From Octopus vulgaris (Eukaryota), in the NCBI GenBank assembly GCA_951406725.2, contig OX597819.1:32488001-32552000 (forward strand): a DNA stretch of 64,000 bases, read 5' to 3'. Shown one piece after another: positions 3,312 through 25,755 of this stretch. The position numbers were made by a program, and so were the translations under genes. The notes below the pieces were generated by a model that was given only the letters and a program-made list of their open reading frames with translations, did no database searches and was not told the origin of the DNA. Within the stretch, counting starts at the first letter, position 1. Each line of letters begins with the position of its first letter.

Positions 3312-3868
3312 AATGCCCTGATGCAGTACCAGGCAGTGGCTCTCATGGCTTCTCATCTTAACTGATTGGAAGTGTTATCATGTACATTGTTTTGTCTTGG
3401 TATAAAAGATGGGCTACAGCAAATATTCTGCTCAATACCACAGATTTGCTTGTCAGTTGTTTGACCTTTACCAGTTGAGCATGTCCCTTAGTGGCTGACG
3501 ATATGTGCATCTCTGACCACGAGCAGAAGTAGTGGGGGAGCATCATAGCCATGTGTTGAGAGGGATTCTTTGGGGTTTGAATAGTTCACCTCTGGAAACA
3601 TGGGTGGTTCTTTCAACATCCTTAAACAACCCTTATTCAGGGACCGTTTGAGCGGGATGGGCTACTCAACCTGAAGAAAATTCTAACTGGGCCCCACCTG
3701 CAAGGTCATGTGCTGTTTATCTTGATATGAGATCACCATGTCGCGCACATATGGTTGTGATGCATGTGCCTGGTGTACCCTTATCAGACGGGTAGTCATG
3801 ATGGGTATATTGGGCTTCGTATATTTTACCCCAGTGTCACTTTGATGGCATGAACTGCTCTCTCACTC
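3312..3868 (+). mobile_element. ~555-bp non-coding (TAA)n-inserted element, copy 1 (full length)
   Basis: Flanked by (TAA)n on both sides; homologous to reverse-complement copies at 6821, 24588 and 25231. Confidence 0.85.
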
Positions 3869-4158
3869 AATAATAATAATAAAAATGATAATAATAGTAA
3901 TGATGATGATGATCATCATCATGATAATAATGATAATAATAATAATAATAATAATAATAATAATAATAATAATAATAATAATAATAATGATAATAAGAAT
4001 GATAGTAATGTTGATGACGATGATGATAATAATAATGAAAGTTACTACTACAACTACTACTACTACTACTACTACTACTACTACTACTACTCTTCTACTA
4101 CTTTAATAATGATAATAATAATAATAATAATAATAATAATAATAATAATAATAATAAT

Positions 4159-4342
4159 ACAGGACTTACAAACACATATAACATACAGAAAATTGCACTA
4201 CTAGGCACTGCACACATCCTACGCAGAACACTTTCCATACAATAACCATCAAAGCATCACAACAAATCACAGCACATACCCAAGGCACACAGAGCTGCGC
4301 TCGGTAGTGAAGTGAAAGCACGCTATAAAAATAAAACTACTG
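4159..4342 (+). mobile_element. 3' tip of a Dong/R4-type LINE in (TAA)n
   Basis: Encodes GLTNTYNIQKIALLGTAHILRRTLSIQ*, homologous to VQKIVLMGTAHILRKILSM at 28555; short 3' UTR then (TAA)n. Confidence 0.85.
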
Positions 4343-5996
4343 AATAATAATAATAATAATAATAATAATAATAATAATAATAATAATAATAATAATAATA
4401 ATAATAATAATAATAATAATAATAATAATAATAATAATAATAATAATAATAATAATAATAAATAATAATAATAATAATAATAATAATAATAATAATAATA
4501 ATAATAATAATAATAATAATAATAATAACAAGAACAACAATAACAACAAGAACATCAATAATGATTTATATAGTGATAAGTCTACAAGTCAAATCGATTT
4601 CATCGATCCAGTACTTGTCTGATGCTTATTTTATCGACATTCGATGAATGGGATATAAAGTAATCCTGGCAGGATTTGAACTGGAAAAAAATCCCTTATA
4701 ATTATAGTAATATTAATGATAAGGTCACTAATAATCGCTGCCATAACTGGTATATTACCAATACCTCTGTAATAGTAACATCAGCCCCAGTTACTACTGT
4801 TTAGGAAATATAGTCCATCAGTATTCATTCACATGGCAATGTAGCCCTTTGTGAATCATAATTTTATATTTGAAGACAATGAAGAATATAAAGGCTACTG
4901 TTTACTTTGACAGCACCCATAATGTGGCTAATACAATTATTGATGGTGGCGTAGATGCTACTAATACGAGCAATCATGCACCCAGTAAGAGTACCATTAA
5001 CGCCAACTATAATAATTTGGGTGCCTGTATTCTAATCATTAAACAAACAATCATGCTAATTTCAATGACTGCCGTGGATGATAATGCGCCGTTCAAAATA
5101 CGCAATAAGACATGCAATATCAGAGTACTTAGTAATTGCCTAATGAAAGGCAAATGCTTATATGAATATACCGTTAACACCACACGGGTCAACTTCACTA
5201 GAATTTACATTGGTGGAATGATTGAGCTTATTTTGTACATTTGAGCTCTTTCTCCGTTATCTTCTACATTTGAGCTCTTTCCCACTTGTTACTAGAAAAC
5301 ACTCTACCTCTCTCGCCATCCGTACAACTACCTTAAAGCTGAGAGTACCTGCTACAAGCTCTCTTGTGGAGCTCCACGTATAGCGAACAGACGACATTGT
5401 AAATTTTGTTGCCATGAATCACTCGCAATACTACGTCAGAGAGACGACTCCCCACTTAATTGCTTCTCTGATATAATTACCATGTTCAGAAATGAATTAA
5501 ACCAAACGTTTTCTGATTCCCACAAATCCTAATATTTGAATCACAAAAGCCAAAGGTTCTTTTCTACCACATATAATACGCCACCTATAATCCAACAGTT
5601 TTTCGAAATCAGTGACAGTGGTTACTGGGGAAAACATTAAATAGATATTCGCAAACAGGTCTCTCTCATCGAAAACCGGTGATTACCGTACGTTGACAAG
5701 AGGCAAATTACCTCGAAACTGCAGTCCGTGCGTATCACTTAGGTTTACAAGAGAGGGATGACCCCCCTTTGCAAATATCATAAAGGCACAGAAAGTGTGT
5801 CTAAAGCCAGCTGGAGACGATGATCTCCTGGGGCTAAAAGCTACAGTAACACCCACCCTTAGTGGTTAGCCATATTGAAATGGATAGTATGCTTTACGTA
5901 TATATATATATATATATATATATATATATATTCATGTATATATATGTATGCATGTATATATATTTACATATACATACATATATATATATATATATT

Positions 5997-6680
5997 CTAG
6001 CTGTGATACCTGGTAAAAAATTACCGATAATATGTCTGATTATAGCCATGATACATTGTTCGTCAAATTTCGACTTTTTTCAAAAATTTTAAATCTATAT
6101 TAATGGGTAGGACCGATTTGGCGAAAAACTGACCAGTCTTGTAGCGAGCCCGTTTCGTTCTCATTTTTGTGCATGTGTTGTAAAATGGCGAAATTTTACG
6201 CTTTGGGACAGATTTCGTCAAATTGATGTCACGCCGGCTAGTGCACAAAATTCCTAAATTTTGCTTGAGAAATAAAATGGTCTTACCTAATCAAAACCTG
6301 AAACGCCGGGGAATTAAAACAACGAATTGAAATAATACGTTTTAGCAAATCAAAACAATTCGCATTGAAATGCAAAATTAGCAAATGATAAATAAATTAC
6401 CGTTAATAAGCTGTCTGTTTATTCACAGGAAACATTTTTCATCAAATTTTGGCATTTTTCGTCAAATTGATGTCACGACGGCTAATGCGAGAAATGCCGA
6501 AATTTTACGATTTTTAAAAAATCGATGCTGATTAAAAATCAATTTTTAAAAAAAGTTCCAAGTGCCTAAGTGACATCATGGGCATAAGCCTCACATACGT
6601 GTCAAGTCTCATCAAGGTCTGTTGGATAGTCTCGGAGGAGTTAAAGTAACAAATTCACAAACACACAAACTTGCCATTTA
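5997..6680 (-). mobile_element. Non-autonomous Helitron-like element
   Basis: CTAG terminus at 5997-6000; internal repeats of tcgtcaaattgatgtcacg; other end resembles that of the element at 49660. Confidence 0.5.
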
Positions 6681-6820
6681 TTATTATTATTATTATTATT
6701 ATTATTATTATTATCATTATTATTATTATTATTATTATTATTATTATTATTATTATTATTATCATCATCATCATCATCATCATCATCATCATCATCATCA
6801 TCATCATTATTATTATTATT

Positions 6821-23500: not shown

Positions 23501-24189
23501 AATTGGCATAATATTATATGTCCCGCACGTGCTTCTTGAAGCAAGCGTAGAAATTTTGTAACGTTCTCTGACGTAACACGGTAGCAATTGCGCTTCTCAC
23601 ATCCAACGAGAAGCGATTTATATCCATAAAACTGTTTTTTACTCTATAGAAAACAAATCATAATTACTTGAGATGGTCGACAGTTTTCACTCTCATAATC
23701 TTAACATTCCATCAGAATAAAGCTGGTTTTTTTTTTTCATTATACACCACGACTCAACTACATCTAACCGAACGTCTGATGAGAATTAGCATAATTTATC
23801 GAACAGAATTACGCACAAACCAATCCAACGATAAAGTCTCCAATGAAGTTAAAATGATATTTGTAAGGATAAAAATAACGTGCATAAAATTTATAAAAAA
23901 TAATTAGCTATCCCAAATTGGTGAAGAATAAATAGATTTATAATTCAGTATTCCACTTTTGAAAAAACCCTGAACTTCAATCGAAAATGTCAAAGGAATA
24001 GCAAAAAATGGTATTATGACACGTACAGAAAAGTACAGAGAGAAACGTAGCGACGGGCGAAATACCGCTAAACATTTTGTCCAGCGCACTAAGGACTCTG
24101 CCAGCTCACCGCCGTGATGATGATGATGATGATAATGATAATAATAATAAAAATAGAAATAATAATAATAATAATAATAATAATAATAA

Positions 24190-24400
24190 TCTTTTCGACT
24201 CTTGACAAAAGGCCCGAAATTTGGGGGGAGTGGGGGCCAGTCGATTAGATCGTCCCGAGTATGCAACTGGTACCTAATTTATCGACCCCGAAAGAATAAA
24301 AAGCAAAGTCGGCCTCGGCGGAATTTGAACTTAGAGCGTAAAGACACGAAATATCGCTAAGCATTTCGCCCGTCGTGCTAACGATTCTGCCAGCTCGTCA
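24190..24400 (-). mobile_element. SINE family B
   Basis: Reverse complement of the 21474-type head and core. Confidence 0.8.
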
Positions 24401-24587
24401 CCGTGATGATGATGATGATTATAATAATAATAATAATAATAATAATAATAATAATAATAATAATAATAATAATAATAATATTGTGAGCTCGATGATGTTT
24501 ACTCCTCACCCTTTTAACACGGTTTTAGAAGACCGTGTGCTTACTAATGATACTTATTATTATTATTATTATTATTATTATTATTAT

Positions 24588-25139
24588 GTGAGAGAGGTGT
24601 ATGCCATCAAAGTGACACTGGGGTAAAATATACCAGGCCAAGTATACCCATCATGACTACTCGTCTGATAAAGGTACACCAGGCACATGCATCACAACCA
24701 TATGTGCGCGACATGGTGATCTCATATCAAGATAAACAGCACATGGACTTGCAGGTGATGCCCAATTAGAATTTTCTTCTGGTCAAGTAACCGATCCCGC
24801 TCAAAAGGTCCTGAATAAGGATTGTTTAAGGATATTGAACGAACCACCCATGTTTCCAGAGGTGAATTATTCAAATTCCAAAGAATCCCTCTCAATACAA
24901 GGCTATGATGCTCCCCCACTACTTCTGCTCGTGATCGGAGATGTACACATCACTAACTACTAAGGGACATGCTCAACTGGTTAAGGTCAAACAACTGACA
25001 AGCAAATATATGGGATTGAGCAGAATATTTGCTGTAGCCCACCTGTTATACCAAGACAAAACAATGTACATGATAAGACTTCCAATCAGTTAAGATCAGA
25101 AGCCACGAAAGCCACTGCCTGGTGCTGCATCAGGGCATT
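24588..25139 (-). mobile_element. ~555-bp (TAA)n-inserted element, copy 3 (full length)
   Basis: Same 5' junction as copy 1 (taat-aaatgccctgatgcag); TTA arrays on both sides. Confidence 0.85.
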
Positions 25140-25230
25140 TATTATTATTATTATTATTATTATTATTATTATTATTATTATTATTATTATTATTATTATT
25201 ATTATTATTATTATCATCATTATCATTATT

Positions 25231-25755
25231 GAATGAGAGAGCAGCGCATGCCTTTAAAGTGACACTCGGGTAAAATATACGAAGCCCAAGACTAACCGTC
25301 TGATAAGGGTACACCAGGCACGTGCATCATAACAATATGTGCGTGACATGATGATCTCATATCAAGATAAACAGCACATGGCGGGAACGATTTATAATTC
25401 CTTCAGGTTGAGTACCCCATCTAATTCGAAAGGTCCCTGCATAAGGGTTGTTTAGGGATGTTGAACGAAATACCCATGTTTCCAGAGATGAATTGTTCAA
25501 ACCCCAAAGACATTCTCTCAACACATGGCTATGGTATTCCCCTCTCCTTCTGCTCGTGATCAGAGGTGCACATATCATCAGCCACTGAGGGACGTGCTCA
25601 AATGGTTAAAGTCAAACAACTGACAAGCAAATCTGTGGTATTGAGTAGAATATTTGCTGTAGCCCATCTTTTATACCAAGACAAAACAATGTACATGATA
25701 ACACTTCCAATCAGTTAAGATCAGAAGCGATTGAAGTCACTGCCTGGTATTGCAT
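25231..25755 (-). mobile_element. ~555-bp (TAA)n-inserted element, copy 4 (diverged)
   Basis: Tandem to copy 3 across a TTA spacer; small internal deletions. Confidence 0.8.

What the first reader, a model, noticed from the sequence alone, without database searches (positions are those of the whole stretch)
3312..25755. Unexplained ~555-bp non-coding element that inserts only into (TAA)n: candidate non-autonomous partner of Dong/R4
Seen: four copies (3312+, 6821-, 24588-, 25231-), each with (TAA)n on the sense strand at both ends, nearly the same 3' end (ctctctca(c/t)...-(TAA)n), an identical 5' junction in two copies and 5' truncation in two. I see no tRNA A/B boxes, TIRs or recognisable ORF, and several local hairpins (gctcaa...ttgagc; taccc...gggta). 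Its 3' end matches none of the three Dong/R4 3' ends in the window. Established: Dong elements target (TAA)n through an RLE endonuclease. Inference: a sequence-specific, non-tRNA SINE-like RNA hijacking a Dong/R4 protein, possibly fused UTRs of a lineage not present here.
Basis: partly seen in the sequence, partly recalled or inferred. Interest (0 to 1): 0.75.

Follow-up and report, generated by a model that had tools for sequence, protein, structure and literature searches.

The report
Short RNA hitch-hiking on TAA-targeting retrotransposons
A 558-base non-coding jumping element sits at more than 19,000 places of this (likely octopus) genome, nearly always inside TAA repeats, and likely gets there by borrowing the enzyme of Dong retrotransposons, whose predicted RNA tail hairpin it resembles in shape although not clearly in sequence.

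Summary
Real. The four copies belong to a genome-wide family: an exact 3' 14-mer occurs 19,146 times (control 23) and a 5' 14-mer 9,172 times (control 0). Of 96 position-ordered copies, 54 are full length, 94 end at one fixed 3' end, 86 have (TAA)n downstream and 78 upstream (background 0.7%). No ORF, tRNA box, Rfam match or ribozyme was found. It is not a LINE 3' UTR: only 90 of 19,146 copies lie within 330 nt of a Dong C-terminus, from mixed lineages. No sequence homology to three young full-length Dong lineages. New here: positions ~460-499 fit a hairpin that covaries across Dong 3' UTRs; a model built only from Dong UTRs ranks element copies directly after true Dong UTRs (12.5-14.2 bits; modest). 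Junctions (TAA both sides, 5' tandem duplications, truncation) mirror Dong. Best reading: non-autonomous Dong/R4 passenger (0.75); promoter, origin and helper lineage unresolved, transcript not shown. Akin to R2 SIDEs and EhSINE1 but without end homology to a known helper. Earlier scan notes did not report it on other DNA.

The parts
3313..3870 (+). Element copy 1, full length (558 nt), (TAA)n both sides
6819..7338 (-). Element copy 2, 5'-truncated (starts at element position 47), 95% to copy 1
24588..25138 (-). Element copy 3, full length, 91%
25229..25755 (-). Element copy 4, starts at position 9, 85%, two internal deletions, one removing the 3' arm of the hairpin
3769..3812 (+). Predicted 3' hairpin of copy 1 (9-bp outer stem, 2-nt bulge, 7-bp inner stem, 5-nt GG loop), in register with the Dong 3'-UTR hairpin; also at 6877-6920 (-) and 24640-24683 (-)
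3415..3583 (+). Element positions ~103-271, also present inside a separate TA-flanked TIR element (MITE-like) elsewhere in the genome
28334..30441 (-). Dong/R4-like LINE, lineage A, 5'-truncated, RT plus CCHC/RLE region, (TAA)n both sides; candidate helper lineage with intact full-length copies elsewhere
26048..28016 (-). Dong/R4-like LINE, lineage B, decayed, 3' UTR cut inside the hairpin
4161..4344 (+). Dong/R4-like LINE, lineage C, short 3' fragment in the same TAA cluster as copy 1

Best explanation
The element is a discrete 558-nt non-coding repeat with fixed ends, present in at least 19,000 copies inside (TAA)n, that is likely copied by target-primed reverse transcription using the protein of Dong/R4 LINEs in trans. 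Steps: (1) an RNA with a defined 5' end is made - inferred; the promoter is unknown, a Pol II start at or near position 1 is my best guess (about 45%) because there are no A/B boxes, three T4 runs and no ribozyme was detected; (2) the Dong protein binds the hairpin ~78 nt from the 3' end, which copies the architecture of the Dong 3'-UTR hairpin - structure predicted, binding inferred; (3) the RLE endonuclease nicks a TAA array and primes cDNA at the fixed 3' end - inferred from junctions and from the known Dong target; (4) synthesis completes in about half of the events or stops early, more often in the first ~130 nt, and the 5' end is joined to TAA, sometimes after re-priming that duplicates the first 15-25 nt - junctions shown, mechanism inferred. 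Several source copies have been active in succession (linked subfamily alleles, shown).
For: Copy number: exact 14-mers 19,146 (3', control 23) and 9,172 (5', control 0); 3' end joined to TAA 17,536 (control 11); 16 non-MITE HSPs in 800 kb of random regions (~56,000 pieces, 32,000-91,000). Position-ordered sample: 54 of 96 start at <=16, 94 of 96 3'-intact, 86 of 96 TAA downstream, TAA upstream in 46 of 54 full-length and 32 of 42 truncated copies; background 106 of 15,680 windows. 5' tandem duplications in 10 of 110 near-full copies and in Dong A 1 of 8, C 2 of 5, D2 0 of 2. Intact helpers exist: lineage A with ~1,270-aa ORFs at 98-99%, D2 with many equal-scoring copies and ~1,235-aa frames. 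Dong 3'-UTR hairpin covaries (12 of 16 pairs changed on both sides, 13 distinct rows, slid controls 38-43% paired vs 75%); a model built from Dong UTRs only places 4 element hairpins (12.5-14.2 bits, E 0.075-0.28 in 100 kb) directly after the 10 Dong UTR hits and above all other sequence in 10 loci; descriptor score >=14 in 0 of 3,000 shuffles of the last 130 nt, and all 11 such matches in 1.6 Mb (both strands) are element (7) or Dong A (4). This region is the only significantly folded part (z -3.4, sense strand only). Dong targets TAA: PMC3812793 and PMC1635306 passages.
Against: No sequence homology to full-length A, C, D2 and only a borderline 18/25 match to lineage B's hairpin (12 of 300 shuffles, 1 of 11 lineages tested). 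The hairpin match is weak for copies with the younger allele (6.4-9.3 bits; E 0.2 in 661 nt); copies of one family are not independent; the descriptor was written after seeing the element and catches only 3 of 10 Dong types. The hairpin lies ~78 nt from the tail against mostly 39-76 nt in Dong. The element lacks the GGACG motif and splice-donor-like motif that all three Dong 5' ends carry. No transcript shown (contigs only). A Penelope-like family also abuts TAA arrays (12 of 15). R4-clade assignment of the LINEs rests on domains and target, no tree was built.
Confidence: 0.75

Rival explanations
1. Same mechanism, different origin: a SIDE, i.e. the 5' and 3' ends of an extinct or unsampled Dong lineage joined by internal deletion. 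Overlaps with the best explanation.
For: Dong-type 3' hairpin, closest to the old lineage B (18/25 nt); at least 10 Dong 3'-UTR types exist and an O. vulgaris annotation lists 51 Dong-R4 families (PMC13282606 supplement), of which I saw full-length 5' ends for only three; R2 SIDEs of similar design exist (PMC3414825 abstract and Background).
Against: No LINE family ends in this 3' end (90 heterogeneous matches of 19,146; 1 match with the tighter pattern); 26 of 30 5'-motif loci run to the element's 3' end and the other 4 go into unrelated, unshared sequence; no protein similarity to Dong A in six frames and no tblastn hit outside copies; no HDV-like fold above shuffles; lacks the Dong 5' motifs.
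Confidence: 0.3
2. Mobilised by another autonomous element that also associates with TAA, such as the hammerhead-bearing Penelope-like family or a HERO/other RLE lineage.
For: Penelope-like repeats follow TAA arrays in 12 of 15 copies; HERO families can target microsatellites (PMC4640811 passage); the element's first 92 nt loosely resemble a hammerhead topology.
Against: The Penelope-like copies shown have TAA on the 5' side and ragged non-TAA 3' ends, unlike the element; hammerhead core bases are absent in young and old copies alike (position 12 C, 57 G in all age classes).
Confidence: 0.1
3. A Pol III SINE whose small-RNA head has diverged beyond recognition, mobilised by Dong.
For: High full-length fraction (56%) and fixed 5' end are SINE-like; an A-box-like 12-mer with one mismatch at position 25.
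Against: No B box at a suitable distance, T4 runs at 78, 334 and 512, no Rfam/ARAGORN match, length 558 nt.
Confidence: 0.12
4. Merely the 3' UTR of an autonomous LINE left by 5' truncation, or a DNA transposon/MITE.
For: Positions ~103-271 occur inside a TA-flanked TIR element.
Against: 54 of 96 copies start at the same 5' end joined to TAA; depth is nearly flat along the element in 4 runs; the element itself has no TIRs, has a polar tail and 5' truncations.
Confidence: 0.03

Closest known systems
[quoted passage not shown]
   Same: Short, non-coding, non-Pol III, site-specific passengers of a site-specific LINE (R2 is an RLE element); junctions copy those of the helper.
   Different: SIDEs have sequence identity to the helper and a 5' HDV-like ribozyme and are rare; this element shows neither homology nor ribozyme, targets a microsatellite and has >=19,000 copies.
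EhSINE1 / EhLINE1 of Entamoeba histolytica (PMC2996970 Background; PMC1635306 and PMC2657916 passages)
   Same: 500-600 nt, no ORF, conserved termini, thought to use an RLE-encoding LINE.
   Different: EhSINE1 is not sequence-targeted, makes ~22-bp target duplications, is shown to be transcribed, and its ends can be aligned with EhLINE ends; here strict TAA targeting, no shown transcript and no end homology.
Dong (R4 lineage) of Bombyx mori, DongAg, DongBg (PMC3812793, PMC3774820, PMC1635306 passages; original Dong paper not held)
   Same: TAA target, polar insertion, 5' truncation; Dong-like LINEs in this genome share the junction pattern and 3' hairpin.
   Different: The element encodes no protein; B. 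mori Dong has a self-cleaving 5' HDV-like ribozyme, which I could not detect in the element or in the three local Dong 5' ends.
Bipartite non-autonomous RTE derivatives (PMC7245038 passages)
   Same: Non-autonomous LINE passengers without a small-RNA head.
   Different: Those are 5'+3' pieces of a recognisable RTE; helper clade and targeting differ.

Membership tests
Non-autonomous non-LTR retroposon | Multi-copy, no coding capacity | tested here: met
Non-autonomous non-LTR retroposon | Fixed 3' end with tail, 5' truncations, no TIR/LTR | tested here: met
Non-autonomous non-LTR retroposon | Recent activity from several source copies | tested here: met
   top hits 97-99%; linked diagnostic alleles
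Non-autonomous non-LTR retroposon | RNA intermediate shown | tested here: inconclusive
   only contigs available; two RNA runs gave one contig each
Canonical SINE (tRNA/7SL/5S head, Pol III) | Small-RNA-derived head with A/B boxes | tested here: not met
Canonical SINE (tRNA/7SL/5S head, Pol III) | Pol III transcription | not testable with these tools
   three T4 runs argue against
SIDE (short internally deleted element) | Sequence identity of both ends to an autonomous partner | tested here: not met
   limited to 3 full-length lineages and 11 UTR types, so an unsampled lineage remains possible
SIDE (short internally deleted element) | 5' self-cleaving ribozyme | tested here: inconclusive
   own HDV descriptor at shuffle level for element and Dongs (no positive control run); hammerhead rejected
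Dong/R4 passenger | Same target and polarity as Dong | tested here: met
Dong/R4 passenger | Shared 3' recognition element | tested here: inconclusive
   structural fit in register, modest scores
Dong/R4 passenger | Binding and TPRT by Dong protein | not testable with these tools
   needs biochemistry
Dong (R4 clade) for the helper LINEs | Single ORF, RT plus CCHC and PD..D RLE, TAA target | tested here: met
   (closest solved relatives R2); RLE motif read by eye from recalled consensus
Dong (R4 clade) for the helper LINEs | RT phylogeny within R4 | not tested
   no reference proteins in session; atlas unanswered
Penelope-like / retrozyme | Hammerhead core | tested here: not met

The most novel reading that the evidence does not exclude
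A non-coding RNA of non-LINE origin has evolved a structural mimic of the Dong 3'-UTR hairpin, lets several sequence-divergent Dong lineages copy it, has outlived helper turnover across octopus species, and so became a microsatellite-specific, non-Pol III 'SINE' of tens of thousands of copies - showing that an RLE retrotransposon reads RNA shape, not sequence.
Probability: 0.3. Interest if true: 0.72.

Novelty: new variant of a known kind. Interest (0 to 1): 0.52.

Why it matters
How RLE-type LINEs outside R2 choose their RNA template is little known. This locus offers a natural experiment: about ten Dong lineages with a covarying 3' hairpin, intact young helpers, and a passenger that shares the hairpin shape but not the sequence. 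It makes template recognition by Dong directly testable with a 558-nt RNA, bears on minimal cargo design for site-specific TPRT, and adds a major unclassified repeat (about 0.3-1% of the genome by copy estimate) to cephalopod annotation. I found no description of a Dong passenger in 10 literature searches, but Repbase, Dfam and the Zenodo library of PMC13282606 could not be searched and may hold it as an unclassified SINE or unknown repeat.

Tried and rejected
Hammerhead head: suggested by one divergent copy; core bases absent in all age classes of 331 alignments. HDV-like ribozyme: best descriptor scores reached by 13-31 of 40 shuffles for element and Dong A, C, D2; Rfam on three Dong loci gave nothing relevant. 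Sharp cleavage site near position 87: truncations are enriched at 70-100 (12 of 42, p 2e-5 against uniform) but spread over 17-132 (25 of 42), no single site. Coding remnant: none (one search errored and was not repeated). Homology to Dong A, C, D2: shuffle level. LINE with the element's 3' end: searches show heterogeneous neighbours; 14 of 20 inspected are TAA-separated, others are direct joins that could be template switches or deletions. Relation to a tRNA-like TAA-tailed repeat (shared ~10-12 nt): inconsistent, 0-178 of 200 shuffles. RNA evidence: holders on record as RNA are metatranscriptomes with small shares; X9 is only guessed RNA - no evidence either way. Protein atlas unanswered. 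Earlier scan notes: none on this element.
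Full report
Observation. The four copies are in the window as described: 3313-3870 +, 6819-7338 - (from element position 47), 24588-25138 -, 25229-25755 - (from position 9), 85-95% identical to copy 1, each between sense-strand (TAA)n. No tRNA, no Rfam family over the body, no ORF above 59 aa and no A/B-box pair. The organism is likely an octopus (inferred from recalled repeat motifs; earlier scan notes say the same).

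Genome-wide family. A DNA search gave 2,287 first-look candidates, the best 40 being 97-100% identical and nearly full length. Exact patterns give whole counts: a 3' 14-mer 19,146 times (control 23), a 5' 14-mer 9,172 (control 0), the 3' end joined to TAA 17,536 (control 11). In 80 random 10-kb regions there were 18 HSPs, 2 of them in a different repeat, about 56,000 pieces by extrapolation (32,000-91,000; pieces, not copies). To avoid top-hit bias I took the first listed matches on contig C1 (91 loci, 96 copies): 54 start at position <=16, 94 are 3'-intact, 86 have TAA within 35 nt downstream, TAA lies within 30 nt upstream in 46 of 54 full-length and 32 of 42 truncated copies, against 106 of 15,680 random windows. 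Three copies are followed by (GAA)n. Identity to the majority runs from 84 to 99% (median 96). Diagnostic positions are linked into subfamilies, and the older alleles dominate in a run of another coded organism (X13), so the family predates that split; five coded organisms hold 90-100% of its words.

Not a LINE tail, not a visible SIDE. The genome holds many Dong/R4-like LINEs (74,901-92,074 first-look candidates) with at least ten 3'-UTR types. Full-length copies of three young lineages (A, C, D2) show no similarity to the element above shuffles. Only 90 of the 19,146 3' motifs lie within 330 nt of an RLE C-terminal motif, from mixed lineages at mixed distances (the pattern does not cover every lineage); 14 of 20 inspected are separated by TAA. 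Of 30 loci with the 5' motif, 26 run to the element's 3' end and 4 break off into unrelated sequence. Laid contigs show flat depth, and the best-supported foreign junctions listed belong to a MITE-like repeat, not a LINE (many rows not shown).

The link to Dong. Junctions match: Dong copies also sit between sense-strand TAA arrays, are 5'-truncated and sometimes carry tandem duplications of their first nucleotides (A 1 of 8, C 2 of 5, D2 0 of 2; element 10 of 110). Dong 3' UTRs of eight aligned types (15 segments) form a hairpin of 9-bp outer stem, 2-nt bulge, 7-bp inner stem and 5-nt loop with strong covariation (12 of 16 pairs changed on both sides; 75% paired against 38-43% when slid; relatedness of rows inflates shuffle controls). 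Element positions ~460-499, its only significantly stable region (z -3.4 on the sense strand), fit this in register with one extra base. A covariance model built from Dong segments only scored the window copies 7.8-9.3 bits, 3 of 14 hits at E<=10, and one young copy at E 0.2: not significant alone. In 10 of the random loci, chosen because they hold element or Dong copies, the ten best hits were Dong UTRs and the next four were element hairpins (12.5-14.2 bits). A post hoc descriptor reached score 14 in 0 of 3,000 shuffles, and its 11 best matches in 1.6 Mb were element or Dong A, but it recognises only 3 of 10 Dong types. Primary sequence is closest to old lineage B (18 of 25 nt, 12 of 300 shuffles, one of 11 tests). 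The support is therefore real but modest.

Mechanism. Shown: fixed ends, polarity, target, subfamilies, intact helpers. Inferred: an RNA with a defined 5' end is bound through the 3' hairpin by a Dong protein, which nicks a TAA array and primes reverse transcription; about half of the events complete; early stops are denser in the first 132 nt (25 of 42; 12 of 42 at 70-100), perhaps at the predicted 5' stem. Dong's TAA target is stated in PMC3812793 and PMC1635306 (passages). Unknown: how the 5' end is made. B. mori Dong self-cleaves by an HDV-like ribozyme (PMC3774820 passages), but I found no such fold above shuffles in the element or local Dongs (no positive control); a hammerhead was rejected. 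The local Dong 5' ends carry a DPE-like and a splice-donor-like motif (recalled consensus) that the element lacks.

Rivals. SIDE of an unsampled or extinct lineage (0.3, same mechanism); another helper such as the Penelope-like family that follows TAA in 12 of 15 copies but on one side (0.1); diverged Pol III SINE (0.12); LINE tail or DNA element (0.03).

Comparison and novelty. Non-autonomous passengers of RLE LINEs are known: R2 SIDEs (PMC3414825, abstract and Background) and EhSINE1 (PMC2996970 Background; PMC1635306, PMC2657916 passages). This one works like them but fails the SIDE test of end homology and the SINE test of a small-RNA head. An O. vulgaris annotation reports 5 recently active Dong-R4 families and 893 unclassified SINE families without describing such an element (PMC13282606, parts 1-2 of 3 and supplement search); its library could not be seen. 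Ten literature searches found no Dong passenger. Verdict: new variant of a known kind, interest 0.52.

Noticed in passing
L227-L241, L143:2780-3250, L145:8590-9050: A ~500-bp TA-flanked element with long terminal inverted repeats (Tc1/mariner-type MITE by recalled end pattern; 7,400 first-look candidates, ~7% diverged) carries element positions ~103-271 internally; likely captured from the element, direction not proven.
   Followed up: partly
L080, L192, L187 (5' UTRs of Dong A, C, D2): All three full-length Dong 5' ends have a GGACG (DPE-like) motif at +14 to +24 and a GTRAGT donor-like motif at +115 to +142; lineage A also has a polypyrimidine tract and AG shortly before its ATG, suggesting a Pol II promoter and a retained 5'-UTR intron in a LINE.
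   Followed up: partly
A4 alignment; window 28367-28409 (-): A covarying 3'-UTR hairpin is conserved across at least eight Dong/R4 lineages with unrelated UTR sequences; CC before the bulge can also pair with GG of the loop (possible pseudoknot).
   Followed up: yes
G000:C4:46576848, C2:102907611 and many others: Lineage D2 has about a hundred listed copies with identical scores and several ~1,235-aa frames: a very recent expansion; its long 5' UTR contains an internal tandem repeat.
   Followed up: partly
L204, L217, L219, L153 and others: A Penelope-like repeat with a canonical hammerhead core is joined to (TAA)n/(CAA)n at a nearly fixed 5' point in 12 of 15 copies, with ragged 3' ends.
   Followed up: no
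L076, L197, L219, L143: A tRNA-like short repeat with TAA tail often occurs as head-to-head inverted pairs between (TTA)n and (TAA)n.
   Followed up: no
L127:9479, L114 (element position 14), L014, L245, L246, G000:C13:64580857: Direct joins of Dong 3' sequence to internal element positions, and element-to-element joins, without TAA: template switches or microhomology deletions.
   Followed up: partly
window 3401-3408 (element position 89): Perfect TATA-like motif 32 nt upstream of an initiator-like sequence inside the element; significance unknown.
   Followed up: no
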